This document shows, in pieces, positions 14,368 to 32,652 of a DNA stretch of 64,000 bases. The stretch lies in the NCBI GenBank assembly GCA_963847705.1, contig CAWKBC010000021.1, positions 292,527 through 356,526 of the forward strand, read 5' to 3'. The notes under the pieces are model-generated. The model was given only the letters and a program-made list of their open reading frames with translations. It was not told the origin of the DNA and searched no databases. Position 1 is the stretch's first letter, and every line of letters starts with the position of its first letter. This DNA comes from an uncultured Pseudomonadota bacterium (GTDB taxonomy: Bacteria > Myxococcota_A > Polyangia > Fen-1088). The position numbers were made by a program, and so were the translations under genes.

Positions 14368-14394
14368 CAGGGAGGGCAGGGGACGCCTCTTGTT

Positions 14395-15998: not shown

Positions 15999-16096
15999 GC
16001 CATCTCCTCTAACTGCTTCTCTTTGACTCCCGCCTTTGCACGTTTACGCGCTTTGCGGGTGACTGACAATCTCGGTTCGCTCATCGGGCTGCCGGG

Positions 16097-16537
16097 TCAG
16101 TTGTGCGACGTTTGGCGGCCGAAGAGGAAGCCCAGCGACGCTGACAGCAACCCGAAGATCACCGTATCGAGCTTGTCGTTTACCCGCAGGTAGGTGCCGA
16201 GGCCCAGGATCAGCGCCATCATCACGTAGCGGGCGATCCGGTCGAGCATCTCGCGCTTGTGCGTCTGGCGCTTCTCTTCGGACAGCCGGTCCAGGGTGAC
16301 GCTCTTGGCGGATTTGATCAGATCGGTGACGGTCTTGACGACCTCGGTGCCGCGCTCCGAGTCCAACCAGCGAAAGATGTAGGCCTCGACCGGCGGAAAC
16401 GCCGACCGGAGGACCTTCGCGACCTCCTCCTCCTCGGCCTCGGGGTCGACGGAGACCTCCTTCCGGCGGAGGGACAGTTCGTCCGGGTCCTGGGCGGCTG
16501 GTGTTTCGGCGGCGGTTTTCGGAGGGGCGTCCGACAT
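16097..16537 (-). CDS. Hypothetical protein with C-terminal 2 TM hairpin
   Basis: Acidic/helical N-terminus followed by YVMMALILGLGTYL and VIFGLLSASLGFLFG. Confidence 0.65.
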   Translation of the reverse strand: MSDAPPKTAAETPAAQDPDELSLRRKEVSVDPEAEEEEVAKVLRSAFPPVEAYIFRWLDSERGTEVVKTVTDLIKSAKSVTLDRLSEEKRQTHKREMLDRIARYVMMALILGLGTYLRVNDKLDTVIFGLLSASLGFLFGRQTSHN

Positions 16538-16835
16538 GCGTGCTCCTGTTTCGAGGTTCGGGGAGCCACGCCAAACCAGCCGTCCAACCCCTGGATTGCG
16601 TAAGCGCAAGCACCCATCGCTGGCTGTCAAGAGTGTGACCGCCAAAAATATGGAAGTCCCCCGGTTGACGGAACGGGTGGAATCGTTCGGGCGGTAGCGG
16701 TCGGGTGCTTCTCACGAAGCACGTGTGCAGAATTGAGATCGCCAGCTCCTGCAGCGTTGTGCGCTACCTCCAGCAATGGCACAACGCACGGAGACAATCC
16801 TTGCAAATTTAATATCTCACGTTAGATTTGCAGAT

Positions 16836-18008
16836 ATGATTACGCGCCGTGCCATGAGGCTCGTCCAGGAGGCCCTGGACCGCCAGGCCGCCGTGGGCCT
16901 GATCGGGCCGCGGCAGGTCGGGAAAACCACGCTCGCCCGGACCCTGGGTGAAGCGGCGGGCGCGCTGTACCTGGACCTCGAAGCGCCCGAGGACCGCGCC
17001 AAGCTCGCCGAGCCGGCGCTCTTCCTGCGCAACTACGAGGACCGGCTGGTGATCCTAGACGAGATACACCGGGCACCCGAGCTGTTCATGACCCTGCGCG
17101 GCCTCATCGACGAAGGCCGCCGGAGCGGGCTCAGGCACGGCCGGTTCCTGGTGCTGGGCTCGGCCGCGATCGATCTCCTCCGCCAGTCCGGGGAGACGCT
17201 CGCGGGCCGCATCGCCTATATCGACATGGGGCCGTTCGACGTCCTCGAGGCCGGAACAACGGAGCCGGATCGCTCGGCCCTCTGGCTGCGCGGAGGGTTT
17301 CCGGACAGCTTCCTCGCCCGGACGGATGGGGAAAGCCTCGCTATCCGGAAGGACTTCATCCGCACCTATCTCGAACGCGACGTGCCGCAGTTCGGGCCGC
17401 GCCTGCCGGCCGAGACGCTCGGCCGGCTCTGGACGATGCTCGCTCACAACCAGGGAACCATGCTGAACGCGTCTCGCCTGGCCGCCGGTCTCGCCATCAG
17501 CTCACCGACGGTCACGCGCTACATCGATCTGCTCGTCGATCTCCTGCTGGTGCGCAGGCTGCAACCGTTCCACGCGAACACGGGCAAACGGCTCGTGAAG
17601 TCGCCGAAGGTCTATGTACGCGACAGCGGCCTTACCCACGCGCTCCTGAGCATCGAGGACCAGAACGAGCTCGCCGGGCACCCGGTCGTCGGGGCGAGCT
17701 GGGAGGGATTCGTGATCGAGAACCTCCTGGCCGTGGTGCCTACCCGCACAGAGGCGAGCTTCTACCGCTCGGCCGGGGGAGCGGAGATCGATCTCGTGCT
17801 CGACATCCCGAAGCAGGGCCGCTGGGCGATCGAGATCAAGCGCGGCCTGACGGCGCGGCCCGAGAAGGGCTTCCACCAAGCGTGCGAGGACATCAAGCCC
17901 GACCGGAGGTTCCTCGTCTACTCCGGCGCGGACCGGTATCCCGCGACGGCGGACACCGAGGTGATCGGGATCAAAGAGCTGGCGGAGACGCTGCTGGTTG
18001 CGACGTGA
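16836..18008 (+). CDS. AAA_14 ATPase with DUF4143 domain
   Basis: GPRQVGKTT, ILDEIH, LGS, GGFP, KSPKVYVRDSGL and EIDLV...IEIK. Confidence 0.9.
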   Translation: MITRRAMRLVQEALDRQAAVGLIGPRQVGKTTLARTLGEAAGALYLDLEAPEDRAKLAEPALFLRNYEDRLVILDEIHRAPELFMTLRGLIDEGRRSGLRHGRFLVLGSAAIDLLRQSGETLAGRIAYIDMGPFDVLEAGTTEPDRSALWLRGGFPDSFLARTDGESLAIRKDFIRTYLERDVPQFGPRLPAETLGRLWTMLAHNQGTMLNASRLAAGLAISSPTVTRYIDLLVDLLLVRRLQPFHANTGKRLVKSPKVYVRDSGLTHALLSIEDQNELAGHPVVGASWEGFVIENLLAVVPTRTEASFYRSAGGAEIDLVLDIPKQGRWAIEIKRGLTARPEKGFHQACEDIKPDRRFLVYSGADRYPATADTEVIGIKELAETLLVAT

Positions 18009-18123
18009 GGGGGAAGGGCCGGGGCAACTCCCGTCCCGCCGTCCTCTGCCCCGCCTTGACGCCGAGCTTGTTGCTCACCTACGATCTGGGAAGGGGGAAG
18101 CCGCTAACCAGAGTGGAGGCCGC

Positions 18124-18450
18124 ATGGGCCGATCCGAGGATGTCAGGCAGTGGCTGCGGAACAACGGGTATGACGATGTCGCCGGTCAGATCGACAAGCT
18201 CATGGACAAATGGGCGAGGGAAGGGAGCGCAACCCGGCGCGACTGGTGGCAGATTCTGGCAGGCGCCAATAACGGCGCACCACGCAGCGTCGACGGAATA
18301 GAGTTCCCGGTTCTACGCTCCGCCCAGGCCCGTCAGGGACTACCGGTCACCCCGAATGCCATCGCGCGCAACAAGCAGGAAACCGTCCCGCAGGTCTGGA
18401 CGACCGGCCGCTGGCCTGCCAAAAGCGGCAAGAAGAAAAAGAGCCGCTGA
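18124..18450 (+). CDS. Small Trp-rich hypothetical protein upstream of the methyltransferase
   Basis: ATG after GGAGG; WLRNNGYDDVA...TRRDWWQILAG...FPVLRSAQARQG. Confidence 0.7.
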   Translation: MGRSEDVRQWLRNNGYDDVAGQIDKLMDKWAREGSATRRDWWQILAGANNGAPRSVDGIEFPVLRSAQARQGLPVTPNAIARNKQETVPQVWTTGRWPAKSGKKKKSR

Positions 18451-19255
18451 TACGGCGGCCGCGGCGCGTCCCTTCCTGAAATGGGCCGGCGGGAAGCGGC
18501 AGCTTGTTCAGGAGCTGACGAAGCACGTTCCCGAAAGCTTCGGTACCTATTACGAGCCCTTCGTCGGCGGAGGCGCGCTATTCTTCCACCTTCAGCCCCG
18601 AAGCGCCGTCCTGTCGGACAGCAATGCCCGGCTGATTCGCACCTATAGCGGCATCCAGAACAACGTCGACGACGTCATCTCGATCCTCCGCACCTACCGC
18701 AACGAGAAAGCCTTCTATCTGAAGCTCCGGGAGATTCCGATCGACGAGCGGTCCGACGCCGAACTGGCCGCCTGGTTCATCTTCCTGAACAAGACGGGGT
18801 TCAACGGCCTCTACCGCGTGAACCGCCGGAACTTGTTCAACGTGCCTTTCGGCGACAATGCGCGCGCGCGGATCGTCGACGACCTCAATCTGAAAGCCTG
18901 TTCCGCCGCCCTCAAGGGCGTGCAGCTGCATTGTGAGGATTTCGAGGCCGCGCTCGCGCGGGCAGGGCAGGGCGACTTCGTCTACATCGACCCGCCCTAC
19001 GTGCCCCTCTCCGATACGGCCTACTTCACGTCGTACACGTCCAGCGGGTTCGGGCCCAAGGATCAGCTCCGGCTCCGCGACGCGGCCCTGTCCCTCAAGC
19101 GGCGCGGCGTGACGGTCGTTCTTTCCAACTCGTCCTCCCACCGGGTGTCTGAGCTCTACGGCGCCGGGTTTACCTGCATCCCCGTCTCGGCGTCGCGGCT
19201 CGTCAACAGCGACATAAAGGGCCGCGGGAAGGTCACCGAGTTTGTTATCGTCTGA
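18356..19255 (+). CDS. Dam-family (alpha class) DNA adenine methyltransferase, start uncertain
   Basis: PFLKWAGGK, YYEPFVGGGA, FNGLYRVN and DPPY. Confidence 0.9.
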   Translation: MPSRATSRKPSRRSGRPAAGLPKAARRKRAADTAAAARPFLKWAGGKRQLVQELTKHVPESFGTYYEPFVGGGALFFHLQPRSAVLSDSNARLIRTYSGIQNNVDDVISILRTYRNEKAFYLKLREIPIDERSDAELAAWFIFLNKTGFNGLYRVNRRNLFNVPFGDNARARIVDDLNLKACSAALKGVQLHCEDFEAALARAGQGDFVYIDPPYVPLSDTAYFTSYTSSGFGPKDQLRLRDAALSLKRRGVTVVLSNSSSHRVSELYGAGFTCIPVSASRLVNSDIKGRGKVTEFVIV

Positions 19256-19257
19256 CT

Positions 19258-19656
19258 ATGCCCGGAAGAGCTACCGCCGTTGCTAACGGCGATGACCTCG
19301 TGCAGAAGGTCGTCGCTCTCGCCGCGGAACTCAAACTGCAGGCGCGAACGCAAGTGCGGGTCGGACGCCGCATCTGGGGCGCCATCCGCAAAATCGACGT
19401 CGTCCTGACGGAGACGTCCACGCGCCGGACGATCGGCGTCGAATGCAAGTTCCAGAGCAGCCAGGGAACGGCCGAGGAGAAAATCCCCTCCACGATTCAG
19501 GATATCGCCGCCTGGCCCATCCCGGGCATCGTCGTCTTCTCCGGCGATGGTTTCAGCGCGAACATGAGCGCCTTCCTGATCTCGACGGGGAAAGCCGTCG
19601 AATTCGAGGATCTCCAGGCGTGGCTGTCGCTCTACTTCGGTATCCCCGGCGAGTAA
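19258..19656 (+). CDS. Small PD-(D/E)xK nuclease (putative restriction/nicking enzyme)
   Basis: KIDVVL...GVECKFQ...GTAEEKIP; starts 2 bp after the Dam stop. Confidence 0.7.
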   Translation: MPGRATAVANGDDLVQKVVALAAELKLQARTQVRVGRRIWGAIRKIDVVLTETSTRRTIGVECKFQSSQGTAEEKIPSTIQDIAAWPIPGIVVFSGDGFSANMSAFLISTGKAVEFEDLQAWLSLYFGIPGE

Positions 19657-19660
19657 AACG

Positions 19661-20389
19661 CTAGGAAATCACTGCGAGCGCGTACTGCTTCGCACCCGAT
19701 TCGCCCGGACCGGCGTCCGCCGCGGCGGGCTCCGCCATTCCGAGCCGCTGCCTCGAGAGGGAAAGGGCGTCCGGGGAGATGTCGTTCCCGGCGAACCGCC
19801 GGTCCAGCTTCAGTGCGGCGACCCCCGTGCTGCCCGAACCCATGAACGGATCGATCACCAGCTCTCCGGGCGCCGTGCTTTGCCCGATGAGCACTTCCGA
19901 CACGCGGACAGGCTTCTCCGCCGGATAGCCGTTTCTCACGCGCGGCACGTTGATCACGTCCGCCGTACCCAGGTTGTTGAGCCGCCGCTTCCCCTTCTCA
20001 AAGAAGAGGACCATTTCGTAGCGCGATCGGTAGTGATAGCCCATCCCGATATTCTGCTTATCCCAGATCAGCGGCTTCCAGAACTTGAATCCCGCCGCCT
20101 CCGCAACCGGCTTCGCAATGAACGCCGTCTCCGGGTCGGTAAAGAGATAGAAGTGCGCGTCCTTCTTGAGAACGCGAAAGACCTCGGCGAACAGCTCCGG
20201 AAACCGGCTGTTGGGAAAGATCTGGAACCACTGATTGCTGGAACCCTTGCTCTGCTTCAAGCGGGTCGTCGTTCCCACCGCCCGATGCTTCTCCAGCGAT
20301 TCATAGGGCGGGTCCGTGACGACCAGATCGATCGACCCCGCAGGCAACTCTTTCAGCCACGCCACAGCGTCCATCTGTCCGAGAAGCAT
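19661..20389 (-). CDS. Beta-class N4C/N6A DNA methyltransferase
   Basis: TDPPY near the N-terminus; YPAEKP and DPFMGSGST near the C-terminus. Confidence 0.9.
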   Translation of the reverse strand: MLLGQMDAVAWLKELPAGSIDLVVTDPPYESLEKHRAVGTTTRLKQSKGSSNQWFQIFPNSRFPELFAEVFRVLKKDAHFYLFTDPETAFIAKPVAEAAGFKFWKPLIWDKQNIGMGYHYRSRYEMVLFFEKGKRRLNNLGTADVINVPRVRNGYPAEKPVRVSEVLIGQSTAPGELVIDPFMGSGSTGVAALKLDRRFAGNDISPDALSLSRQRLGMAEPAAADAGPGESGAKQYALAVIS

Positions 20390-20646
20390 GGGCCTGACAG
20401 TACAGCTAAACATCTGAGCAGGTCAAGGTTTAGCGGCCGAGTGGCCCGGAGGGGAGTGTCTGGCGCAAGCGCCCGCAATTACTTTTGTTTTCCTGTCTGT
20501 CAGGAGAGAGCCGCCCTTGAGGCGGCGTCTGTCGGCCTGGGGCGCTCGCGAGGGGATGTGCGCCTCGAGTCGCCTCCCGTTCTATGGCTCGCTGAGTCCG
20601 TGCCGTTTTGATCCCCTGGCCGAAATGCGCGACAATTTGCGTCCAC

Positions 20647-21732
20647 ATGCCCCCGTTGAACAAAGGACCCAAGGAGTTCTTTGAATTCCTTCAGACGAAA
20701 AATGCCGGTGACGTCATTTCTGAAGGGGACATCCTTGCGGCGGTCACCAAGTGGAAGGCGAACAGCTTTCACACCTACAAGGGCAAGAACAAAATTGCGC
20801 CGTTTCTCGAAGAGCTTCCCGGCGACAAGTACCGCGTCATCAACGACGGGAAGATTCTGTCGGAGGCCCACTTCCACGAGGTGTTCACGCAGGTCAAGCC
20901 GGCGGTCGTCGTCCCCAAGGCGGGAAGCCAGCTGACGGGGAAGGCGGGCTCGTACGTCCTCGATTCGTTTATCGGAGCCGGTGCGGTCGGCTCGGTATGG
21001 CGCGGGCGACACGAAGCGACCGGCGGGCTGGTGGCCGTGAAGATCATGCTCCCCAAGGCCGATCTGCTTGAACCGTCCACGCTGAAGAACGTCAAGGAGC
21101 GATTCCGGCGCGAGGCGCTAAACGGCATCAAGCTGAAGCTGCCGTCCGTCATATCCCACCGGGACGTCGGGGAATGGCAGGACACGCCGTTCCTGGTCAT
21201 GGAACTCGCTTCGGGCTCCGTCGGAGCCGAGCTGAGAGCGGGCGGGGCTTTAGCGGCGAGCGCCGCCGCATCCGTTGTCTCCGATGCGGTCGACGGCCTG
21301 CTGGCGCTTCACAAGGACAAATGTATTCATCGGGACGTGAAGCCGGACAACATGCTTCGCGTCGGATCAAAAGTCGTCCTTGGTGACCTCGGCATCGTGA
21401 AGTGGAACGAGCTGAACCCCGCGTTCACCGGTGCGGGAACGATCACCAGGGCGTCGATACAATTGGGGTCGTGGTACTACATGGCTCCCGAGCAACGAAA
21501 AGCCCCGCATGAAGCCAAGTTTGCCAGCGATATGTACGCCCTTGGCATTTCGTGGATTGAGCTTCTAACCGGGAGTGCGCCCGATCCGTCGGAGGTGGGT
21601 GCGAACAAGTATCCCGATCCGAGCGCGGATCAGGATGTCTCGGCGATGATCCGCCGGATGCTGCAATATGATTTCAAGGACCGTCCGACGGCCGAAGACC
21701 TGCGAAAGTTTCTGGACAACCTCCCCGGCTAA
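20647..21732 (+). CDS. Hanks-type Ser/Thr protein kinase with an extra N-terminal domain
   Basis: GAGAVGSV, VAVK, HRDVKPDN, DLG, YMAPE and SDMYALG. Confidence 0.9.
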   Translation: MPPLNKGPKEFFEFLQTKNAGDVISEGDILAAVTKWKANSFHTYKGKNKIAPFLEELPGDKYRVINDGKILSEAHFHEVFTQVKPAVVVPKAGSQLTGKAGSYVLDSFIGAGAVGSVWRGRHEATGGLVAVKIMLPKADLLEPSTLKNVKERFRREALNGIKLKLPSVISHRDVGEWQDTPFLVMELASGSVGAELRAGGALAASAAASVVSDAVDGLLALHKDKCIHRDVKPDNMLRVGSKVVLGDLGIVKWNELNPAFTGAGTITRASIQLGSWYYMAPEQRKAPHEAKFASDMYALGISWIELLTGSAPDPSEVGANKYPDPSADQDVSAMIRRMLQYDFKDRPTAEDLRKFLDNLPG

Positions 21733-21744
21733 GTGCGGCCGATC

Positions 21745-22944
21745 TCACACGTCCTTCACGCCGACAGGCTCAAAATAGTCCGCCGATCCCAGAACGGACC
21801 CGTCGCGCAGCAGGCTGAGCGACCCCGTCCTTTCCGGCACGTTCACCGCCTCAATCTGCCGCGCGGAGGCGAGGCCGCCACGTGCAACCCCCATGACGGC
21901 CGTGAACACGGCCTCCTCGACGCCGAAAAAGAGGGGAGGGCGCGTGAGGAAGAACGGCGATGCACGCCGGATGTACCTCCACATATGGCGCAGCTCGTGC
22001 TCATCATGGTCGAAGAACGGCCACCAGGGTCCCCAGGGCACGGCGAACCAATCCGGGATGATGCCGCCGACGAACCGCCTTCCTTTGAGCGGGCCGGAGA
22101 CGCACTCCCAAAGACCGCGTGTGGCGCGCAACTCGTAGGGCCGCAGATGCCGGATCGCCTCGGCGACATCGCGCAGTTGGAGCCGGTCGAAGACGGGCGC
22201 GTAGTGACCGGCAACCATCGAGAGCCCGATGTCCCGCGGATAACCGCCCTCGCCAGGGGGAGCACCCCTTGTCACGGGGTCCTCGACGAGCAGCTGTGAT
22301 CGCACTCGGGGCGTCTCCTCGGTCGCCCAGCGCGCCGCGCTCACGTACCCTTTGACCTCAAGGGCGTGGCCCTGCGGGTCAATCAGCTGGACGCGCGCTA
22401 CTTGCGCCCTGAATTCGTCGAACTCCTTCGTGCGGAACGACACGGGGCTGTAGCGGCCCTTCGCCTCGAGCAGGTTTACATCGCGGTCATGCTTGCCGCA
22501 GACATAGTCCGGCGAGTCGCCGGCTTCGTGCTTCCGCCATGTGCTCCCGTCGGGGTTTCCCCGCTCGAGCACATCCTTGAACGGGCAGAAATACGTGAAC
22601 CCGAAGTGGGTGTCTAAAAACCAGCGGGCGAATGCCTTGCCGAGTTCGTTCGAGACGTTGCGTTTGGACTCCGTGTCCGCGCCGATTCCCGCGCCAAGGA
22701 AGCGCCAGTCGGGGCCGGCGGTCAGACGGCGCTCGTACTCGTAGATGCCGTCATCGAGCCCGTCGTCGCCGTATTTCACGAGGTAGTAGTGGTGGAAGAG
22801 GGCTTTCACGGCGACGGATAGCGCTTTGACCGGCTCCTTCGTCGCGGGATCGGTGAGCGTCGCCGGGAGGGCGGGGAACTTGTTGAGGGCGAGCGCTATC
22901 GTGCGCGCTGTCGTAGTCGTCATTCCCTGTGCTCCCCCCGCCAT
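21745..22944 (-). CDS. Hypothetical protein with a putative PD-(D/E)xK nuclease core
   Basis: SNELGKAF...SPDYV...LLEAKG fits the E...PD...ExK pattern. Confidence 0.6.
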   Translation of the reverse strand: MAGGAQGMTTTTARTIALALNKFPALPATLTDPATKEPVKALSVAVKALFHHYYLVKYGDDGLDDGIYEYERRLTAGPDWRFLGAGIGADTESKRNVSNELGKAFARWFLDTHFGFTYFCPFKDVLERGNPDGSTWRKHEAGDSPDYVCGKHDRDVNLLEAKGRYSPVSFRTKEFDEFRAQVARVQLIDPQGHALEVKGYVSAARWATEETPRVRSQLLVEDPVTRGAPPGEGGYPRDIGLSMVAGHYAPVFDRLQLRDVAEAIRHLRPYELRATRGLWECVSGPLKGRRFVGGIIPDWFAVPWGPWWPFFDHDEHELRHMWRYIRRASPFFLTRPPLFFGVEEAVFTAVMGVARGGLASARQIEAVNVPERTGSLSLLRDGSVLGSADYFEPVGVKDV

Positions 22945-22963
22945 GCCCGCCCCCCGCCTCCGT

Positions 22964-24064
22964 TCAGATGACCTTCATCGGATTCGCCGCGAACTTCTGG
23001 AACGAGAGCTTGGTGTACTCCACGTCCTGGCCGAGAAACCGCTTGTATCGCGCCTCTTCGGCCTCGGCGTCCTTGCGCTTCTTCCCTTTGAAGTGATTGA
23101 CCACCGTGACCTTCAGGGGGCTGTCGCGGTTCGTCTGGGCGCGCTTGAGCAGGTACTTGATGTGGATGTCGGCGTCGGGGAACGAGTACCCGCAGAAGAC
23201 GATGTGGCTGACCTTGCGCAGCGCGATGTCCGCGCGGTTCCAGATCGCGCTCAGAAAGGCGTTGCTCATGTCCTTGTAGAAGGTCGGCGGCACGATAAGC
23301 GGCACGTAGACGCTCTGGCAGACCCCGCATACCTTGTCCCTGAAGCTGGAGATGGAGAGGCGTGTGACGACGCCTTTCTCGTTCGGCGTGAGTTGCAGCT
23401 CGTTGCAGGTCGGGCAGAACAGCCAGTTCAGCGAGCCATGGGGCTTGAAGAGTTTCACGCTGCGGTCGAGGGCCGGCCGGGTCCAGTCGCCCGGCCAATC
23501 GAAGTTGCGGAAGTCCACGCCGTAATCGAGTTCGGTGCCGTGGGTAAGCTCTTCGCTCAGGGAGTTGTCGATCAGGATGTCGTAGTTCGTCGAGACGAAT
23601 ACGGTGCTGCGGAGCCGGTTGGCTTTGCGCAGCGCCTCTACGAGGTTGTCATGGAGGCCCGTTCCCTTTTGCAGCTTGAGGTCGAGCACCTTGGCGACGA
23701 GAAACACCAGGTGTTGCGCGATGAACCGCAGGCGTCCGCTCTTCGCGGTCTGGTTACCGCTGTCAAAGTGCCGGAAGCCTTCCTTCCGAAGCATCGCGAG
23801 ATCGGTGAGGCCAAGCACCTCCTCGAAGGTCGGGAAGATGACGTCCGCGAGGCTTCGCCGCCGGACGTTGATCTGGAACATCTCCAGAAAGAACTTCGCC
23901 AGCTCCTCGTTCATCGGCTCCGTGCTCTTCTTGAAGAGGTCCGACGAGAAATAGTCCCTGAAGAGGGTGTCCTGGACAGGAGCGCCCTCCGCGCGCGACG
24001 CTCCGGCGCCCAGGAAGATCGCCGTGTCCACGTCGGGTGGATGCGCCTTCGGGGCGGCAACCAT
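22964..24064 (-). CDS. SIR2-like (sirtuin/NADase) protein with Zn finger
   Basis: FLGAGAS, STNYD, KPHGSLNW, CPTC...CGVC, IVPPT and GYSFPDAD. ATG overlaps the recombinase stop. Confidence 0.88.
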   Translation of the reverse strand: MVAAPKAHPPDVDTAIFLGAGASRAEGAPVQDTLFRDYFSSDLFKKSTEPMNEELAKFFLEMFQINVRRRSLADVIFPTFEEVLGLTDLAMLRKEGFRHFDSGNQTAKSGRLRFIAQHLVFLVAKVLDLKLQKGTGLHDNLVEALRKANRLRSTVFVSTNYDILIDNSLSEELTHGTELDYGVDFRNFDWPGDWTRPALDRSVKLFKPHGSLNWLFCPTCNELQLTPNEKGVVTRLSISSFRDKVCGVCQSVYVPLIVPPTFYKDMSNAFLSAIWNRADIALRKVSHIVFCGYSFPDADIHIKYLLKRAQTNRDSPLKVTVVNHFKGKKRKDAEAEEARYKRFLGQDVEYTKLSFQKFAANPMKVI

Positions 24065-25071
24065 CACAGCTGTACCCTCTCGACCTCGGCTTGCGCGATC
24101 TTTCGATCCGCACGGACATAGAGCCGGGTAGTGCGGGCGTCGGCATGCCCGGCCAGTGCCTGGGCGTCCTCGAGCCGGCCTTTGTTCTCCTGGTGGATCG
24201 TGATGCCCGTCGCCCGGAATGAGTGATTGCAAGTGGAGGAGGGGAGTCCCGCGTCCTTGCAGCGGCGCTTGACCACCTCCCACACCTTGCCGCCGGCTAT
24301 CGGCCTGCCCGAGAGCGCGGGCTTGCGGCCGGGAGCGCTCTGGAACAGCGGCACCTTCGCTCGCGGCTCGAAGCCCGCCGCTGCGACGTATGCTCGCAGA
24401 TAGTCGCGCGTGACGTGATGGCAGGGGATGCGGCGCTCCTTGCCGCCTTTTTCGTGCAGCACAAGCGTTGCGGTCGCGCTTTCGTCCTCGAAGTCCCTTA
24501 CTGTCATCTTGCAGAGCGCCCCCACGCGCACGAACCCGAACAACATGACCGCGAACATGGCCCGGTCGCGCAGCGCCAGAATATCTCCGGTCTCGGCGGC
24601 TGTGTCGAGCAGCGCGAACAGCGCCCGTGCCTCGTCGCGCTCGAGCACGGGCGTCTTGCCTTCGGTCACGACGAGCCGCTCGGTACGGACGGACAGGGCA
24701 GGGTTGTGCGGCAGGACGCCGCGTTCCGTGAGAAAGTCCAGCCAATGGCGGATCGCCGAGGCCGTGAGCTTCACGCTCGCGGTCGAGACGTCCAGGCCCG
24801 CGAGATAGACGCTTACCGTCGGCGCGTCGAGCCGTTCGAGGCTGACGCCCTCACGCTCACACCAGGCACAGAACGCGAAGACGGCGCGGCCGTAGGCGCG
24901 GCGCGTGTGCGCGTTCGGAATCCGCGCCGTGAAGAATTCGAGGGTAGTGCGCGCCGCGCGCTCCCCGGAGCGGGCGATCATCGCCGGCAGGACCATCGAG
25001 ACGACGGCTGCGCCGTGTACGGTGACCGTTAGGCTCATCGACGGGGCAGGGGAGTGGGCTTCGCCATTCAT
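24064..25071 (-). CDS. XerC/D-like tyrosine recombinase (plasmid-resolvase type)
   Basis: RDRAM...FVRVG, EKGGK, HSFRATG and AGHADARTTRLY. Confidence 0.9.
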   Translation of the reverse strand: MNGEAHSPAPSMSLTVTVHGAAVVSMVLPAMIARSGERAARTTLEFFTARIPNAHTRRAYGRAVFAFCAWCEREGVSLERLDAPTVSVYLAGLDVSTASVKLTASAIRHWLDFLTERGVLPHNPALSVRTERLVVTEGKTPVLERDEARALFALLDTAAETGDILALRDRAMFAVMLFGFVRVGALCKMTVRDFEDESATATLVLHEKGGKERRIPCHHVTRDYLRAYVAAAGFEPRAKVPLFQSAPGRKPALSGRPIAGGKVWEVVKRRCKDAGLPSSTCNHSFRATGITIHQENKGRLEDAQALAGHADARTTRLYVRADRKIAQAEVERVQL

Positions 25072-25138
25072 GGCTGCTCATTCTCCGTTACGTGCTGTGC
25101 GTTACCGGCTTCGACCTTAACGATCTGAGGGTGGTTCG

Positions 25139-25468
25139 TCAAACAGCCTTTGAGGCTTGGCCGTGACGTTTCACGAACTGCTCAAAGGCCGCCAATACCG
25201 CGTCGGCATCCTCCGAAAGGATGTGCGCCGGCTGCGAAACATCGACGCGCTTGCCGATCTCGCGCGAGTATTGCATCGCGATCGAGCAGGCGCGCACCGG
25301 CACAGAGCGATCGCTGCCCCACTGAAAAATGCCAGCGAGGAAGAGGTAATGGACGCCCTGCGCCTCGCCGTGCGTCGAAGGCACCGCCTCCCACGCCTCG
25401 ACGAAGCGATAAACGTTGCCCGGCTTGTCCTTCTGCAGCTCGAGATCGATCGTCCTGTGCGATGCCAT
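25139..25468 (-). CDS. Hypothetical protein
   Basis: 109-aa ORF starting 2 bp after the upstream gene on the same strand. Confidence 0.55.
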   Translation of the reverse strand: MASHRTIDLELQKDKPGNVYRFVEAWEAVPSTHGEAQGVHYLFLAGIFQWGSDRSVPVRACSIAMQYSREIGKRVDVSQPAHILSEDADAVLAAFEQFVKRHGQASKAV

Positions 25469-25470
25469 AA

Positions 25471-25680
25471 TCAGCCGAGATTGTCGGACTCGGTCTTGTC
25501 CGGATTTGAGACGGGGGTCTTAACGCCGTTGATGACCCTGACGTGGTAGTCGGGGTACTTCCCCTGCCCGATCGCCTGGACGAATTCCGCGCGGCTCATG
25601 GATCGCCGCCGGTCGGGATCGAAGAATCGCTGGTTCCGGCCGCTATCCGTCTCTTCCGTCACGCGCACTCTCCGCGACAT
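25471..25680 (-). CDS. Small DUF3892-like protein
   Basis: GRNQRF...SRAEFVQAI...YHVRVINGVKTPVSNPD...DNLG; strong RBS (AGGAGAAAGG). Confidence 0.7.
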   Translation of the reverse strand: MSRRVRVTEETDSGRNQRFFDPDRRRSMSRAEFVQAIGQGKYPDYHVRVINGVKTPVSNPDKTESDNLG

Positions 25681-25691
25681 CACCTTTCTCC

Positions 25692-26660
25692 TTATCCTGC
25701 CGCGCCCTGCTTGGCGGGCTCCTGGTGGTGCGTTTCGACGAGGAAGGTCGCGAGCGTTGCCGCCGCGCCGACGGCCAGCCGTGCGTGCCGACCGTCCAGC
25801 ACACGGGAAGACGGCTGCTTTCCGTGCCCTGTTCCGTAGAGATTGCGCAGCTCGGCAAGCCTGCCGGCGATGCTGCCGAGATTGTTCAGCACGATGCGCA
25901 TCGCCTCCGCCCCCTTCGCGGAGGCATGGACGTCCTCCGGAGCCAGCTTCAGCTGCTTCATGGCGGCCTTTACAAGCGCCGGGAGATCGAGCCCGTCGTC
26001 GCAGGCTCCGGCGCGCGCGACGAGGATTGCCTTACAGACCGTCTCGACCAGCTCTTTGGCTGTACCGATAGCCAGCTCCGGGTCGTCCTGCACCGCCGCA
26101 TGCATCCGCGTGATCTGCTGGTTGACGTACTCGGCTCCGAGCGGCTCGACGGCGGCCCTCACGGTCGTGACGGCGTGATCGGCGCCCAGCACGAGCCGCC
26201 GGCCCGCGTAAGCCGGGCGTCCCGAGATCAACGTGGCGGGATAAAGCTCCCAGCCGTCGGCCGCGAGGTGGCGGTTGAAGGTTTCGGCCAGGGTGCGGAC
26301 CTCGTCGGTGTCGGGACGCACGGCGGGGTGGAGCGTCTCCGCCAGGAACCGGAGCAGCTCCTCGTCGGAGCACCACATCAGGTTGAAGCGGCTGTCCGTG
26401 AAGACCCAGTCCGGCTCCCCATCGTCGTTGTTGACCCGGTGCTGCCAGATGTCGGCGGCGGCGCTCTTGAACCGGTGATCGTGCGAAGGCATCGCCTTGA
26501 GGTCGTAGAGGCGCGCGAGAAAATCGGGTTCCTGCATGCGGCCGGACCAGGACGTCCTCGACACGGTGATCGCGTCGAAGATGTTCCTGCGCGTGACCTC
26601 GGTGATCACGCTCGGCGTCTGGAGGCTTTCCAAGGCCATCGGGATCGGCATCGGGCCCAC
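25692..26660 (-). CDS. Abortive-infection protein (AbiJ N-terminal domain + Abi_C/HEPN)
   Basis: TRRNIFD, FLARLYDL, DIWQHRVNNDD, LHPAVR, AKELVETVCK and LRNLYGTGHG (HEPN-like R...H motif). Confidence 0.85.
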   Translation of the reverse strand: MGPMPIPMALESLQTPSVITEVTRRNIFDAITVSRTSWSGRMQEPDFLARLYDLKAMPSHDHRFKSAAADIWQHRVNNDDGEPDWVFTDSRFNLMWCSDEELLRFLAETLHPAVRPDTDEVRTLAETFNRHLAADGWELYPATLISGRPAYAGRRLVLGADHAVTTVRAAVEPLGAEYVNQQITRMHAAVQDDPELAIGTAKELVETVCKAILVARAGACDDGLDLPALVKAAMKQLKLAPEDVHASAKGAEAMRIVLNNLGSIAGRLAELRNLYGTGHGKQPSSRVLDGRHARLAVGAAATLATFLVETHHQEPAKQGAAG

Positions 26661-26812
26661 TCACCCCTCCCCCCGTGTTCGCGGGAGATAACGTCTTTTA
26701 TCTCTCGCGAAACTAGCCGGAGAGGGGGCACGGGTCAAGTGTTCAGTGGTCCCGGATCGGGACAGCGGATCCCTATGAGCATGCGTGGCGGTTCGCTGAC
26801 CCGGGACTTGGA

Positions 26813-27292
26813 CTAGTCATCCTTCAGTGGACAGAGTGCAAGCCAGTGAACGTTAACCCAGCCAAGATTTGGCCCGTCGGTCTGTACGTACAGAGGAAAA
26901 TTGAATTTGGTCGTTCCACCTCCGTCTGTATTTGCGTCAACCACGGCACTCACATGAACGCCCGGCTTCGCGCCCGGCATCGGCGTTTGACGGAAATCAA
27001 CGCCTGATATTGCCGTTTGAATAACTGGATGATCGCAATCAACCGCTGGTTTAAGCGTAACGGTGTGGACTGCCTGCTGCCAGCCCGGTGACCGAGTCGA
27101 GGGAACCCACGCGGTTTTCGGATACGGGTCAAAATCTTCGTACCCCGCCTGCGCGATGTAGTACCCGGCATGGGTCATCTTCAGAAGCTTGGTAGTCGCT
27201 ACAACACCACCGGCACCGCCGACCAAGGCAGACAGTAGAATCGGCAGGACGGTCTTTAAGAGTGACTGCCACCACTTTTCGTCCTCACCCAT
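26813..27292 (-). CDS. Membrane-anchored protein with H-type-lectin-like C-terminal domain
   Basis: N-terminal TM; PVIQTAISGVDF...VNVHWLAL resembles the H-lectin consensus. Confidence 0.5.
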   Translation of the reverse strand: MGEDEKWWQSLLKTVLPILLSALVGGAGGVVATTKLLKMTHAGYYIAQAGYEDFDPYPKTAWVPSTRSPGWQQAVHTVTLKPAVDCDHPVIQTAISGVDFRQTPMPGAKPGVHVSAVVDANTDGGGTTKFNFPLYVQTDGPNLGWVNVHWLALCPLKDD

Positions 27293-27412
27293 GTATACGC
27301 TCCTGATGTTGGCCGTTGTTGCCGAGCTGTAGAATCAGCTCTTACTGGTCCCTCTGAATCTTGTCTTCGCGAGGGTGGTCGATCCTCCCGGAATCCCCCG
27401 CCAGCGCCATTC

Positions 27413-27655
27413 CTACGTCTTAGCGTCGTGGTCGGCAAAGACGATCAACCGCCAGCGAATCGCGCCGTGCCGAGGCTCATGTTGGCGGTGGTTCTGCGGC
27501 GGCAGGGGCTTTTTCTCTTCCGAGACCAGTTCGTGGCCGCAGCCCTCGCATCGGTAGATGCCTGAGTAGGGCGTGGCCGTCCCTGGCGCATGCAGAGTGT
27601 CGAAGGCGTCACTCGTCTTGTTGACGAGATATTGAGCGTGCTTGTACCAGGCCAT
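27413..27655 (-). CDS. Small Zn-ribbon protein (YjzC / 'protein L'-like)
   Basis: PG...PYSGIYRCEGCGHE...PLPPQNHRQH...IRWRLIV. Confidence 0.75.
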   Translation of the reverse strand: MAWYKHAQYLVNKTSDAFDTLHAPGTATPYSGIYRCEGCGHELVSEEKKPLPPQNHRQHEPRHGAIRWRLIVFADHDAKT

Positions 27656-27669
27656 TGGCGTCGCTTTCG

Positions 27670-27950
27670 TCAGCCCGGGCAGTCCGGCAACGCGAGGAGA
27701 TTGTCCTTGCCGGTGCTGTCGGGCCTCGTGCGGATGTACGACGCTCGGCCGGGGGTACGTCCACGACCGTCACCACTGCCCTCTGGCCGCCTCCGTCCGT
27801 GTAGAACTCATACTCGCCGGAGCGGATGCACCGAATCACTTGTTCTACGGTGTACCGCGACGGGTATCCATTCACCCCGATGGATGTGATGTGCTCGTGA
27901 CTGCTGGAGCGATTGGGCTTCGTGATGCAGGTGACACGCAGTCCGATCAT
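27670..27950 (-). CDS. DUF3892 domain protein (one frameshift in a homopolymer near 27752)
   Basis: RVTCITK...HEHITSIG...EFYT, continuing in the shifted frame as SYIRTRPDSTGKDNLLALPDC. Confidence 0.75.
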
Positions 27951-28128
27951 GCTGTTCCCTCTTTCGCTTTGGAGAATGTCCGGCCGGCGGTTGTCGCAGC
28001 CGGACCCATTGGGGCTCCTGCCAGAAATGCGCGGAAAGCGTAAAGCCCCGTACTCAAACGCCGCGCAGACCAAAACTTCCGCGTGAAAAGCGAACGGACA
28101 TGTGACGGCGCGTCAGTCGTCGTGAGAC

Positions 28129-28455
28129 TTGAGCGAGGTTCGTGCCTACCTCGGATTGGTCCCACGCGCGCCCAGCTCCGGAGAGAAGGCACTGCGCGGG
28201 CGCATCACAGAACAAGGGAGCGGCCGCATGCTTCGCCTGCTCGTCCAATCTGCATGGGCCGTCCTGCGCTTGAGACCGACGCCGGAGGCTGAAATTCTCA
28301 AGAGCTGCACCACGAACGTGGCCAGCCGGCGCGGGCGATACGTGGCCATCGTGGCGCTCGCTAGGAGGTTGGCCGGGATTCTATTTGCCGTCTGGCGTGG
28401 CAGCACTTCCTACAGAGTGCCCGGTCCTCTGGGCGGTAGGGAGGTGACCACCTAG
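28129..28455 (+). mobile_element. IS110-family transposase C-terminal remnant
   Basis: AYLGLVP...SSG...GRIT.QG...LRLLVQSAW...AIVALARRLAGILFAVW; no N-terminal DEDD domain. Confidence 0.8.
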
Positions 28456-29452
28456 ATTTTTCGCGACTGCTCCCGGCATCGTCTCCGGGGCATGGGCGAG
28501 CGGCAGCCGACGCCGGCCGCACGACGGTGCAGGGTTTAGTAGGCGAGCACGATAACTTGCGTGGCGCAGTCCCGAGGCCGCGGGATACTGATGGTGCCGC
28601 CCACCAAAGTCGGATCCCATCCTGCGCGAGGTACCCACGTGCCTCACTCGTAGCGCGAAACCATGGGTGACCTGTTTCTTCGCGCGCTGGTGTTCAGCTG
28701 CTTCCCCGCTGCCTCCTGACGATCCCTCGACTGCTCGCGGATCTGCTTCCGACGCGCCACCCTTCTGCGTCCCAGAAGGCAGTTTCGGTTTGACAAACGG
28801 TGGCCGCTACAACCATGCAAGATAAAGGGTCGGAGTTCACGCTGCCCTAAGCGGGCGCGTTCACTCGGAAAAGTATAGAGGCAGACCCTTCGAGCTGGCG
28901 CTCACGTGCGCCGAACATCTTGTTCCGATTGGGGAATCGCGGGAGGCAGCTGCGAATTCGGCGGTTTTTCGAAGGCGACCCGGCGGCCCGCCCGAGCGGG
29001 CACGAGGGCAACGGCGGAGCGTCTCGCTGCGAGAACCGCATGAGCCGGTGACGGCTCCCCGAGAAGGTTTCCACCGGCCGGCGAGCGCACCCAGTCGCTC
29101 GGCGCCCCGTGAAATCGAGAGGAAGGAGGTCGGAGTGTTCGGCTTCGGTCCGACAACTCCGGCCTGGAGGTCAAAAATTTCGCGGTTGGCCGAGAACCCC
29201 CGGTGAGGAGCGGAAAAAAGATCGGGTGCGGATGACGAAAGTAGGTCCCTTTTTCGGGCCTCCTCTCGACAACTCCGGCGTGTAGCGAGGAGAGAGCCAC
29301 CAGATGAATCCCAGTTCCATTCGCAGGCCGGTTGCCGAGAAGGGTGATGCAGGGACCGAAAACGCTCACTGCGTCAGAAGAAAGCTGGTCGCTTTTGCCG
29401 CCCAGTTGCCGAGAACGTCGCCGAAATCACGACCACCAGCAGGAGCATAACG

Positions 29453-29917
29453 ATGCGCCACAGAATCCGAGAGCAGTCCTACGTCGACCCCGAGCTGCTG
29501 AAGCAGGTCCGGGCCTATGAAGCCGCGATGGGGTGCACGCACAGCGCGTTCACCACGGAGGCGTATGAGCGCCTCCTCGCCACCGAACGCGGTGCTGCCG
29601 ACGTTATCGGAGCGCGCCTCGATGCCCTGGCCCAACGGCTTGAACGGCACCAGAACACCCTCGAGCTGTTCGCGATGGCGTTCGCGCACTACACGGAGCT
29701 GTGGTGTCGTTTTCTGCCAACGCAGCCCCCGACGCCGGAGTCGCTGCAGCGGGCGGAGAAGCTGTACAGCCAGCTATTGCGCGGTGCCGCGAGGAAGTTC
29801 AGCGCCGGCCGCAGGTTTAGCGGCGAGGTCTTCCCGCCAACGGGCGATCGCGTGCCACCTCGGCCTGGTTCGGGGCCGGTGGGCGGTACTGACAGTGGGA
29901 AAGAGCCAGGCCGATGA
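29453..29917 (+). CDS. CopG/RHH-like relaxosome accessory protein
   Basis: N-terminal beta-helix-helix pattern and coiled coil RLDALAQRLER; ATGA overlap with the relaxase. Confidence 0.6.
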   Translation: MRHRIREQSYVDPELLKQVRAYEAAMGCTHSAFTTEAYERLLATERGAADVIGARLDALAQRLERHQNTLELFAMAFAHYTELWCRFLPTQPPTPESLQRAEKLYSQLLRGAARKFSAGRRFSGEVFPPTGDRVPPRPGSGPVGGTDSGKEPGR

Positions 29918-31671
29918 GCGCCTGGAATCTTGGGGATCCAGAGGAGCCATTTCGGCCCCGCATCGGTCGGCGCCGACGTAACCCGGATAGTGTGCCTTCG
30001 CCCGGGGGTGGATTTCGGCGCCTCGCGCGAAAGGCCGCCCGTCCGGCCCGCGTGGCGGTTCATACCCCGGCAGAAAGTAGTCGGCGATGCGTGATCAAGA
30101 GCAGGTATGCGACGCTTGGAAAGCAGGGCCTGGCGGGGATGAGGCGCCACCTCGCGTACCTGGAACGCGACGGCGTCGAACGAGACGGCTCGCCGGGACG
30201 TCTCTACGGAGCGGACGATGGCTTCGATCGGGATTCCTTTCGTGCCCCTCTGGCCGGTGAGCAGCGGCAATTTCGATTCATCGTTTCCCCCGAAGACGGA
30301 GATGAGCTCGACCTGAAAGAATTCGCGCGCCGGTTGATGACCCAGGTCGAGAAGGACCTCGGGCGGCGTCTCATCTGGGCCGCCGTCAATCATCACAATA
30401 CCGATAACCCCCACGTCCATATCGACGTCCGAGGCGTCGACGTCGATGGTGACGACTTCCGAATCGACTCCGCCTACATCAAGCATCAGATGCGTTGGCG
30501 GGCGCAGGAAATTGTCACCCGCGAGCTCGGCCCCAGAACGGAACTCGAATATTCCTGGGCGCGCGAGGCGGAAATTGGAGCCGAGCGCGTCACCATGGTC
30601 GACCGATTTCTGACCGAGCATGTTCAGCCTGACGGCACGGTGACCCTGAAGAAGTTGCTCGCCCGACCGGGACCGGAGGGTCGGAATTGCGTGGCACGGC
30701 TTCAGACCCTCACCGATCTCAAGCTGGCGATCGAAGAGCGACCCGGGGTGTGGCGGCTGGCCGGCGGATGGAAGGAGTCGCTTGTCCGCCTGGGCGAGCA
30801 GAACGACCGCATCGAGCGGCTGTATCCCATCGTCGGCGACAGGGCAGCCGAATATCAGTTCGTCGATCCGAAGCTGCCCCTGTCCAATTTCGGAGCCGTC
30901 GTGGTCGGCAAGGGCCTCCATGACGAGCTGTCCGGCGAGATGTTCATCGCCGTGCAGGCCACCACCGGCCAGGGCTGTTACATCCCGCTTCGGCCCGAGG
31001 TCGCGGAGACCTTGCACCGGGGCGACAAGATCAGAGTGGCCTTCAAGGCCGAAAATTGGCTGAAGCCCGCCGACAAGGCCATCGCTCAGGTCGCCAAAGA
31101 AAATGGCGGCGTATATGCCCCGCGGGAGCATCAGCGGGAGCTTGAAACCAAGCAGGACGCGAAGGTCGGCGCGGACGCCCTGTCGCCGGCCAACCTCATA
31201 GAGGGAAATATCCGTCGACTGGAACGCCTCGGGGCGTATGGGTTGGTCAGCCAACTGCCGGACGGACGATGGCGGGTCCCGTCCGACCTGATCGCCCAGT
31301 TGGAGTCGAGGGAACGGACGCATCCTCGCTCCCGCCTTCAGATCGACAAGTTCTCGCCGGCTCAGAAGGAGCCTGCCGCGCCTCCCATCACCGACCTTGA
31401 AAAGGAACGAGTGACGATCGGCGAGGGGGCCGCCCAACGGCTCGGGCTGGTCTTCGTGGCCAATCCTCAGCGTTTCAGGGGACAGCTGGTTCCAGCACCG
31501 GCGGGTTCGTCCGGAACCGAGTACGTCCAGGTTGTCGACTATCGGCACCGCCAGCTCGCGCTCGTTCCGAAACCCAAGGAGGCCGAGCGGCTGCGGGGAA
31601 AGGTCGTGACCATCACGCGTGATCCCGCTGGCCGTCTTTCGATTCAAAGCGGTCAGGAGATTTCCCGCTGA
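29914..31671 (+). CDS. MOBP relaxase (VirD2/RlxS-like, DUF3363)
   Basis: RHLAYLERDGV, FRFIVSPEDG, HHNTDNPHVHI (HUH motif) and KGLHDEL. Confidence 0.9.
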   Translation: MSAWNLGDPEEPFRPRIGRRRRNPDSVPSPGGGFRRLARKAARPARVAVHTPAESSRRCVIKSRYATLGKQGLAGMRRHLAYLERDGVERDGSPGRLYGADDGFDRDSFRAPLAGEQRQFRFIVSPEDGDELDLKEFARRLMTQVEKDLGRRLIWAAVNHHNTDNPHVHIDVRGVDVDGDDFRIDSAYIKHQMRWRAQEIVTRELGPRTELEYSWAREAEIGAERVTMVDRFLTEHVQPDGTVTLKKLLARPGPEGRNCVARLQTLTDLKLAIEERPGVWRLAGGWKESLVRLGEQNDRIERLYPIVGDRAAEYQFVDPKLPLSNFGAVVVGKGLHDELSGEMFIAVQATTGQGCYIPLRPEVAETLHRGDKIRVAFKAENWLKPADKAIAQVAKENGGVYAPREHQRELETKQDAKVGADALSPANLIEGNIRRLERLGAYGLVSQLPDGRWRVPSDLIAQLESRERTHPRSRLQIDKFSPAQKEPAAPPITDLEKERVTIGEGAAQRLGLVFVANPQRFRGQLVPAPAGSSGTEYVQVVDYRHRQLALVPKPKEAERLRGKVVTITRDPAGRLSIQSGQEISR

Positions 31672-31719
31672 GCCGTGTCGAGAGCACGGACCGGCACCCA
31701 CCAAGAAAGGAACGCATCC

Positions 31720-32142
31720 ATGGAAAACACGAAGAAGAAAGCAGGCAGACCGAAGTCCGAGCGGCCTACCGGGCCTCTGGTCCTCGAAGGGGTTCAAAAA
31801 CGAGAAACGATCCTCACCGAGGTTTCCGCGGATACAGCGCAGGAGCTGAGTGCGTACGCCGTGTGGGTCAGGGAGTCGGCTTCCGCGAAGCTGACTCCCG
31901 CCGAGGCCATGTCCAAGACGATCGACTTCGCGCTCCGCGAAATCTTCTCCCGCGACAAGTGCTGGCAGGAGCACAAGCGAACGGGCGGTCGGGCAGTAGG
32001 GACGGAAGAGACGGCAGCGCCTGCGCCCGTCGCTACTCCCACCGCGTCCTCTTCGCCGGGCTCCCGCGTCGCAACTGCACCCTCCACCCTCCCACCGCCA
32101 AGCGGGCGTGACAGTCGGGGTGTATCGCAGACCGGTAGCTAA
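31720..32142 (+). CDS. Hypothetical (possible DNA-binding) protein
   Basis: ATG after GAAAGGA; KKKAGRPKS AT-hook-like motif. Confidence 0.6.
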   Translation: MENTKKKAGRPKSERPTGPLVLEGVQKRETILTEVSADTAQELSAYAVWVRESASAKLTPAEAMSKTIDFALREIFSRDKCWQEHKRTGGRAVGTEETAAPAPVATPTASSSPGSRVATAPSTLPPPSGRDSRGVSQTGS

Positions 32143-32648: not shown

Positions 32649-32652
32649 AGCA

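What the first reader, a model, noticed from the sequence alone, without database searches (positions are those of the whole stretch)
21745..25071. Recombinase-coupled SIR2 + PD-(D/E)xK nuclease pair: candidate undescribed defence system
Seen: the XerC-like recombinase stop overlaps the SIR2 start (ATGA at 24064), and a roughly 399-aa protein with an E...PD...EAK pattern follows about 20 bp later on the same strand. Known: SIR2 NADases act as effectors with ThsB, HerA, pAgo or STAND partners; none of these is present here. Inference: a two-gene NADase + nuclease module that I cannot match to a named system, carried as an operon with its own resolvase.
Basis: partly seen in the sequence, partly recalled or inferred. 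Interest (0 to 1): 0.7.

Follow-up and report, generated by a model that had tools for sequence, protein, structure and literature searches.

The report
Shuffled defence genes, not a pair
The sirtuin and nuclease genes are real neighbours here but almost never occur together elsewhere, so they are likely separate anti-phage parts collected on a mobile island; in relatives the sirtuin often follows a methyl-DNA-cutting enzyme instead, and often lies beside sites that the neighbouring recombinase is predicted to act on.

Summary
The three genes are real and intact: a tyrosine recombinase, a SIR2 protein and an unclassified PD-(D/E)xK protein, inside a 21-kb tmRNA-integrated defence island. The proposed SIR2+nuclease system is not supported. 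No SIR2 lies within 6 kb in 32 of 32 nuclease loci; 1 of those 32 genomes has this SIR2 family at all (another contig); 1 of 80 SIR2 loci has the nuclease, in reverse order with a gene between; a same-genus element keeps recombinase-SIR2 without it. The recombinase link is partly right. One SIR2 branch sits at the recombinase's 3' end, and a palindromic dif-like site that precedes 10 of 16 genes of this recombinase family also lies near SIR2 in 13 of 80 loci (shuffles 0-1). The recurrent partner of this SIR2 family is a BisI/Eco15I-type methyl-directed endonuclease directly upstream (27 of 80 loci), missing from this genome. Best reading: independent defence cargo, SIR2 a likely NAD+-depleting effector, the nuclease a likely solo DNase. 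The scan met this SIR2 family before as a solo integron cassette (e1-1255998).

The parts
24064..25071 (-). Plasmid-type Xer-like tyrosine recombinase (335 aa), catalytic R182 K208 H283 R286 H309 Y318 present
   Evidence: (XerC/XerD models far below cut-off); 133 plasmid records with 40-45% top matches
22964..24064 (-). SIR2_2 protein (366 aa), GAGAS19-23, N160, H209, two CxxC (217/220, 246/249); start overlaps the recombinase stop
   Evidence: closest solved fold is the SIR2 subunit of SIR2-HerA
21745..22923 (-). Unclassified PD-(D/E)xK-type protein (392 aa from Met8; first ATG at 22944), nuclease-like core about 90-230 and SH3/KOW-like barrel 276-398
26679..26710 (.). Palindromic dif-like site, 13-bp arms (12 of 13 complementary) around a 6-bp spacer; the only such site in the 6.1-Mb genome; predicted target of the recombinase
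25692..26660 (-). AbiJ_NTD3 + Abi_C gene, first cargo after the site
25139..25468 (-). 109-aa ORF of no known family between AbiJ-like gene and recombinase
12906..33773 (.). Island between two copies of the tmRNA 3' end (12906-12926, 33753-33773), GC 0.632 against 0.691 for the genome; carries integrase, relaxase and defence genes
14395..15998 (-). CBASS: CD-NTase and Cap15-type effector (same island, separate system)
18356..21732 (+). D12 adenine methylase, PDDEXK_11 nuclease, second methylase-like ORF (motif recalled, no profile hit) and Ser/Thr kinase; convergent on the nuclease gene
33753..34108 (-). tmRNA gene, the integration site

Best explanation
The recombinase, SIR2 and nuclease genes are three intact genes that sit together only in this island and are likely independent defence cargo, not one system. 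Shown: each has separate neighbours elsewhere; a palindromic dif-like site heads the gene string; one SIR2 branch starts at the recombinase's 3' end; most other members follow a BisI-type endonuclease or stand alone. Inferred: the recombinase is a multimer-resolution enzyme acting as a homotetramer on that site; an ancestor lost the BisI gene and hooked SIR2 onto the recombinase transcript, using its last codons as ribosome-binding site; SIR2 would oligomerise on a phage cue and cut NAD+ to abort infection; the nuclease was added later and would cut invading or host DNA by itself, its SH3/KOW-like barrel serving as sensor.
For: Nuclease side: 0 of 32 loci (up to 6 kb flanks; 27 with 1.5 kb or more on both sides) hit the SIR2 profile, which finds the window copy; a generic sirtuin motif finds 0 of 35 rows (34 distinct loci) against 59 of 80 control loci; 1 of 32 genomes has the SIR2 family, solo on a 73-kb contig other than the 34.5-kb nuclease contig; the 3 other nuclease genomes among 401 have no SIR2 match at 1e-30. 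SIR2 side: 1 of 80 loci (59 with 600 nt or more downstream) has the nuclease; same-genus L133 has recombinase (72%) and SIR2 (75.6%) with the same TGATG junction and a convergent methylase after it, and its genome has no nuclease match (79% complete). BisI-type gene or its 3' part just upstream in 27 of 80 loci, 18 of 62 clusters at 95% identity. Defence setting: CBASS, RM, AbiJ in the island; DruE, DrmAB, pAgo/TIR, Upx beside nuclease homologues. SIR2 fold closest to SIR2-HerA (E 8e-12, TM 0.53) ahead of CobB-like Sir2Tm (E 1e-6); N and H at the places that DSR2 needs (passages of 10.1101/2021.12.14.472415; equivalence inferred from motif). Sites: 20 in 13 of 80 SIR2 loci against 1, 0, 0 in three shuffles and 1 weak site in 35 nuclease rows; upstream of 10 of 16 recombinase genes.
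Against: No activity was measured for any gene. The closest nuclease homologues (57-68%) could not be placed on contigs; the loci seen are mostly 32-38% identical, one 51%. The 40-bp same-strand gap fits co-transcription. The SIR2 keeps a zinc-ribbon like deacylase sirtuins. Fold support for the nuclease is modest (best Z 5.1, no Foldseek hit at E 0.001). Only 2 of 14 site-bearing SIR2 loci hold a recombinase of this family (a third a distant integrase). The tree is the quick one, with SH-aLRT 82 for the recombinase-linked branch.
Confidence: 0.7

Rival explanations
1. One reading: SIR2 and the 392-aa nuclease form one two-gene defence system (newly assembled in this lineage, the nuclease perhaps replacing BisI as the DNA-cutting partner that triggers or is guarded by SIR2).
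For: Same strand, 40-bp gap, both intact; junction seen in run X1; the usual partner is also a PD-(D/E)xK-type nuclease; both families in L083.
Against: 0 of 32, 1 of 80 and 1 of 32 counts above; L133 keeps recombinase-SIR2 without it; in L083 the nuclease follows DruE and BisI lies between it and SIR2.
Confidence: 0.08
2. The SIR2 is the orphaned half of a BisI-SIR2 system: the endonuclease would sense 5mC/5hmC phage DNA and switch on (or be guarded by) the NADase, so the window copy would be silent without it.
For: BisI-type gene within about 3-18 nt upstream in the 15 loci measured, 27 of 80 loci in all, spread over the tree (12 label changes), catalytic E/D/QxK kept (motif as in PMC11347163); no BisI match in the window's genome (85% complete).
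Against: 53 of 80 loci lack it and several keep only its 3' end (L053, L095, L059); SIR2 stays intact without it in the whole recombinase-linked branch and solo in G642; none of the 40 listed (of 100) plasmid records with a BisI match is among the 5 with a SIR2 match; identity correlation between partners is weak (Spearman 0.33, pairs not independent).
Confidence: 0.25
3. The recombinase is an integron-like integrase whose attachment site is its own 3' end; cargo genes would integrate there as circles, leaving displaced 3' copies.
For: Diverged 3'-end copies lie downstream of 3 of 16 recombinase genes (L088, L137, L139) and on both sides of SIR2 in L088 and L035.
Against: Copy lengths vary from about 49 to 145 nt, so no fixed crossover; L035 is the L133 element with the recombinase deleted between the site region and the last 110 nt; 0 of 6 plasmid loci and the window have a copy; a better core site exists upstream; BisI genes leave the same kind of 3' remnant before SIR2.
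Confidence: 0.12
4. The SIR2 is an ordinary protein deacylase or regulator, not a defence effector.
For: Four invariant cysteines as in classical sirtuins; CobB-like structures also match; solo copy among housekeeping-like genes in G642.
Against: Best sequence and fold matches are defence SIR2 subunits; patchy occurrence (1 of 401 phylum genomes); neighbours rich in RM, TIR, AbiV, CBASS, Schlafen genes.
Confidence: 0.1

Closest known systems
SIR2 subunit of SIR2-HerA (Nezha; PDB 8SUB, 8W9L)
   Same: Similar size, SIR2_2 domain alone, closest fold (E 8e-12, TM 0.53) and only PDB sequence match (E 4e-6).
   Different: No HerA in the island or as a recurrent neighbour; extra zinc-ribbon; 14-18% identity.
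sole-Sir2 (bioRxiv 10.1101/2024.12.27.630466, passages read)
   Same: Single-gene SIR2 that cuts NAD+ and protects against T2 and T4: precedent for a solo effector.
   Different: About 440 aa with a C-terminal Sir2 domain and an extra N-terminal part; here the Rossmann motif starts at residue 19. Sequences not compared.
PD-(D/E)xK nucleases (LHK-Exo, Hjc, Hachiman HamA)
   Same: Catalytic motif and core topology over about 100-140 residues (Z 3.5-5.1).
   Different: No profile hit in Pfam, PADLOC, NCBIfam, PHROGs or PDB sequences; added SH3/KOW-like barrel; no fixed partner.
BisI family (Eco15I, NhoI; PMC11347163, PMC8281217)
   Same: The usual upstream partner of this SIR2 family matches Eco15I at E 9e-35 and NhoI at 4e-20.
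   Different: Not encoded in the window; neither paper's main text contains 'Sir2' (supplements not seen).
Acinetobacter dif modules (PMC6449649) and the Tn6022 XerC-like/dif-like system (PMC11014353)
   Same: Two arms around a 6-bp spacer with ATAA/TTAT inner ends; genes bracketed by sites (4 SIR2 loci have sites on both sides); element-encoded recombinase next to its site.
   Different: Arms here are near-perfect inverted repeats, which points to one self-encoded enzyme rather than XerC plus XerD; the window has one site only; recombination untested.

Membership tests
Conserved SIR2 + 392-aa nuclease system (proposed) | The two genes recur side by side in unrelated genomes | tested here: not met
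   0 of 32 nuclease loci, 1 of 80 SIR2 loci (other order), 1 of 32 genomes (other contig)
SIR2-HerA (Nezha) | SIR2_2 subunit fold | tested here: met
SIR2-HerA (Nezha) | Adjacent HerA ATPase | tested here: not met
   none among island ORFs; no such recurrent neighbour cluster
Thoeris | ThsA with SLOG domain and adjacent TIR ThsB | tested here: not met
   ThsA models only E 0.002-0.005 over 27-32 residues; no TIR gene beside it
SIR2-APAZ / short pAgo | APAZ domain and adjacent pAgo | tested here: not met
   Aga_SIR2 match limited to residues 156-217; no pAgo in the island
DSR1/DSR2 | Large C-terminal sensor after SIR2 (DSR2 about 943 aa) | tested here: not met
   366 aa in all, homologues about 355-385 aa (search limited to 201-641 aa)
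sole-Sir2 | About 440 aa, Sir2 domain C-terminal | tested here: not met
   GAGAS at 19-23; direct sequence comparison not done
Defence SIR2 NADases | Infection-triggered NAD+ cleavage | not testable with these tools
   motifs N160 and H209 invariant in 66 of 66; activity needs an experiment
PD-(D/E)xK nuclease superfamily | Conserved (E)..PD..(D/E)xK residues | tested here: met
   D146, E160, K162 in 155 of 155; P145 in 153
PD-(D/E)xK nuclease superfamily | Restriction-endonuclease-like core fold | tested here: inconclusive
   best rows for residues 90-230 are such nucleases but Z only 3.5-5.1; Foldseek E 0.24 or worse
Tyrosine recombinases | R-K-H-R-H-Y catalytic set and SAM-like N-domain | tested here: met
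Chromosomal XerC/XerD | Equivalog score above cut-off | tested here: not met
   99.7 against 335 and 92.8 against 330 bits
Integron integrase | IntI model above cut-off | tested here: not met
   29 against 265 bits; attC sites were not searched
dif modules | Core site of two arms around a 6-bp spacer | tested here: met
   definition from PMC6449649 passage
dif modules | Cargo bracketed by two sites | tested here: inconclusive
   met in L034, L038, L060, L079; not in the window, which has one site
dif modules | Asymmetric XerC/XerD half-sites used by host enzymes | tested here: not met
   arms 10-13 of 13 complementary; which enzyme acts is untested
BisI family (partner in relatives only) | Homology to Eco15I/NhoI with QxK motif | tested here: met

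The most novel reading that the evidence does not exclude
This SIR2 family is the effector of an undescribed BisI-SIR2 system that couples cutting of 5mC/5hmC phage DNA to NAD+ depletion, and it travels in dif-module-like cassettes shuffled by a self-encoded Xer-like recombinase on palindromic sites: a defence-cassette exchange platform in soil bacteria outside Acinetobacter. The window shows the recombinase, its site and a captured SIR2.
Probability: 0.3. Interest if true: 0.7.

Novelty: new variant of a known kind. Interest (0 to 1): 0.42.

Why it matters
The proposed pair should not be cloned as a system on the strength of adjacency. Three better-founded leads come out instead: an unnamed, well-folded PD-(D/E)xK family (266 representatives at 50% identity) that sits solo among defence genes; a large compact SIR2 family whose commonest partner is a methyl-directed endonuclease, which would link modification-dependent restriction to abortive NAD+ loss; and a recombinase/palindromic-site pair that may explain how such genes are stacked on mobilisable islands and plasmids. 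Each is testable with two or three constructs.

Tried and rejected
No hit for the nuclease in Pfam, PADLOC 2023, NCBIfam, PHROGs or PDB sequences; Atlas look-alikes were all unnamed; Foldseek gave nothing at E 0.001. DefenseFinder was not available. Complex prediction (SIR2 with BisI from L033) was not available, queue full; SIR2 with the window nuclease was not submitted. The careful tree did not finish. Viral scan with the recombinase found no relative; the site pattern gave 2 viral-collection loci, one with a broken recombinase of this family after it. The promoter scan did not score the TTGACC box upstream of the site, so no promoter is claimed. No RNA holder listed. Rest of metagenome contig L036 not held. 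My first lead, an attachment site inside the recombinase's 3' end, was demoted after L133 showed L035 to be a deletion derivative. Paper searches for a BisI-SIR2 link, a solo zinc-ribbon SIR2 and this recombinase/site pair listed no paper describing them; only open-access text is covered and supplements were not seen. Scan notes held nothing on the nuclease, the recombinase, BisI-SIR2 or the site.
Full report
Observation. The three ORFs are present on the minus strand at 25071-24064, 24064-22964 and 22944-21745. The recombinase stop and SIR2 start overlap as GTGATG, not ATGA, and the third gene probably starts at Met8 (22923), 40 bp after SIR2. Pfam gives Phage_integrase plus SAM-like domain, SIR2_2, and nothing for the third. 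One exact contig of run X1 bridges the SIR2/nuclease junction.

Setting. The genes lie in a 21-kb island between copies of the tmRNA 3' end at 12906 and 33753, with a third copy at 7102 marking a further island. GC is 0.632 against 0.691 for the genome. The island carries an integrase, a relaxase, CBASS, an adenine methylase with a PDDEXK_11 nuclease, a kinase and an AbiJ-like gene. It is an ordinary mobilisable defence island, where unrelated systems stack.

The nuclease. 71 homologues were found among the 7,994 candidates scored and 266 representatives at 50% identity; none of the 71 has a Pfam domain. D146, E160, K162 and Q181 are invariant in 155 of 155 aligned rows. The model is confident (pLDDT 90). 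Foldseek gives no match at E 0.001, with lambda exonuclease among the weak rows; the wide search puts LHK-Exo (Z 5.1, rmsd 4.0, 109 aligned), a phage exonuclease, Hjc and HamA on residues 90-230 and SH3/KOW barrels on 276-398. The motif call is therefore good and the fold call modest. Neighbours vary: DruE in 3 loci, DrmAB in 2, TIR-pAgo in 2, Upx in 1, among 28 proteins scanned, and housekeeping genes elsewhere; no neighbour family recurs in more than a few loci.

The SIR2. The family is large (1,393 hits, the best 120 at 64-83%). GAGAS, N160, H209 and four cysteines are invariant in 66 of 66. The model (pLDDT 76, zinc region poor) matches the SIR2 subunit of SIR2-HerA best, then classical sirtuins. 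Passages of Garb et al. (10.1101/2021.12.14.472415) show that N133 and H171 are needed in DSR2; that N160 and H209 correspond is my inference from the motifs. A solo Sir2 effector of other architecture is described in 10.1101/2024.12.27.630466 (passages). PMC11514479 (passages) treats only SIR2-HerA.

Test of the pair. Of 32 nuclease loci none hits the SIR2 profile, which finds the window copy; 27 have at least 1.5 kb on both sides, and a generic sirtuin motif also finds none in 35 rows, one of which repeats L001 (control 59 of 80). Of the 32 whole genomes 1 has the family, solo on another contig. Among 401 phylum genomes, 4 have the nuclease and only the window's own has the SIR2 at 1e-30. 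Of the best 80 of 420 SIR2 loci, 1 (L083) has the nuclease, upstream, after DruE and separated by a BisI gene. The nearest placed relative, L133 from the same genus, has recombinase and SIR2 at 74.5% DNA identity over 2.1 kb and then a convergent methylase; its 79%-complete genome has no nuclease match. Against this: the closest nuclease homologues were not placed, and P0055 may share a contig with L036 (equal lengths; not checkable).

The real partner. A 160-aa gene lies directly upstream of SIR2 in 21 of 80 loci by gene calling and 27 of 80 by tblastn, partial copies included (26 of the 65 with 500 nt upstream); that is 18 of 62 clusters at 95% identity. It matches PADLOC's methyl-directed type II model at 1e-56 to 1e-62 and Eco15I and NhoI, and keeps E40, D60 and QxK (motif as in PMC11347163, passages). 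It is spread across the SIR2 tree and absent from the branch with the window and from the window's genome. Both partners also occur alone, so the link may be co-mobility rather than coupling. The main texts of PMC8281217 and PMC11347163 do not contain 'Sir2' (word searches; supplements not seen).

The recombinase. It has a full catalytic set, scores far below XerC, XerD and IntI cut-offs and belongs to a family on 133 plasmid records. The 6 plasmid regions read show changing cargo, often RM or TA genes, and no SIR2. SIR2 starts at a recombinase 3' end in the window, L133, L035 and L088, which form one branch in the quick tree (SH-aLRT 82): one ancestral junction is the simplest reading. Aligning upstream regions exposed a palindrome with a 6-bp spacer. 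Such a site lies upstream of 10 of 16 recombinase genes and once in the whole genome, at 26679-26710. It also occurs 20 times in 13 of 80 SIR2 loci (three shuffles: 1, 0, 0; nuclease rows: 1 weak site), 33-40 nt after SIR2 in 5 loci and on both sides in 4; the L033 and L079 sites nearly equal the one before the recombinase of plasmid locus L126. This resembles Acinetobacter dif modules (PMC6449649, passages) and the Tn6022 XerC-like system (PMC11014353, passages), but the symmetric arms suggest a single self-encoded enzyme. That this recombinase acts on the site is inferred from position only.

Mechanism. Shown: intact genes, independent distributions, the site, the BisI link, the branch-specific junction. 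Inferred: resolvase action at the site, NAD+ cleavage by SIR2 on infection, DNA cleavage by the nuclease, and the order of capture (BisI lost, SIR2 joined to the recombinase transcript, nuclease appended).

Verdict. The finding as framed is refuted by co-occurrence; the parts are new variants of known kinds. Interest 0.42, carried by the BisI-SIR2 and site-module leads, which the listed paper searches did not find described. An earlier scan note (e1-1255998) reports the same SIR2 family as a solo integron cassette; it agrees with a mobile, partner-optional gene and was not checked at its own locus.

Noticed in passing
window 7102, 12906, 33753: Three copies of the tmRNA 3' end mark tandem islands; each is preceded by an integrase or only its 3' fragment (12612-12890), and the 32617-33744 integrase appears split across frames.
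   Followed up: partly
window 13152-14063 (-): 303-aa ORF after the CBASS genes with a D...QVK pattern, possibly another PD-(D/E)xK protein; no hit in four libraries.
   Followed up: partly
window 20608-21732 (+): Ser/Thr kinase with an uncharacterised N-terminal 110 residues directly after an RM-like cluster.
   Followed up: no
window 33308-33846: ARAGORN calls a second, permuted tmRNA overlapping the integrase; probably a by-product of the true tmRNA end.
   Followed up: no
L088 5917-5965, 7106-7192; L035 4372-4487, 5670-5796; L137 9636-9756; L139 2977-3081; L062 285-426: Diverged 49-145-nt copies of the recombinase's 3' end, often right before the next cargo gene; deletion remnants or displaced copies.
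   Followed up: partly
L015, L027, L083 (DruE); L022, L023 (DrmAB): The nuclease family follows a DUF1998-type helicase gene on the same strand in 5 loci, a possible accessory role for Druantia or DISARM.
   Followed up: partly
L056, L061, L062, L094, L040: A second recurrent SIR2 neighbour, a 310-318-aa protein with no Pfam or PADLOC hit in the two copies scanned, upstream in 4 loci and downstream in 1.
   Followed up: no
L051, L054: HTH plus CapP-like peptidase pair directly upstream of SIR2, a regulator pair typical of immune operons.
   Followed up: no
L133 1377-7265: Same-genus element pairs a 1584-aa helicase-like protein with a DNA methylase, convergent on SIR2.
   Followed up: no
window 38471-38671: Three tandem 67-nt repeats with internal inverted repeats outside the island.
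   Followed up: no
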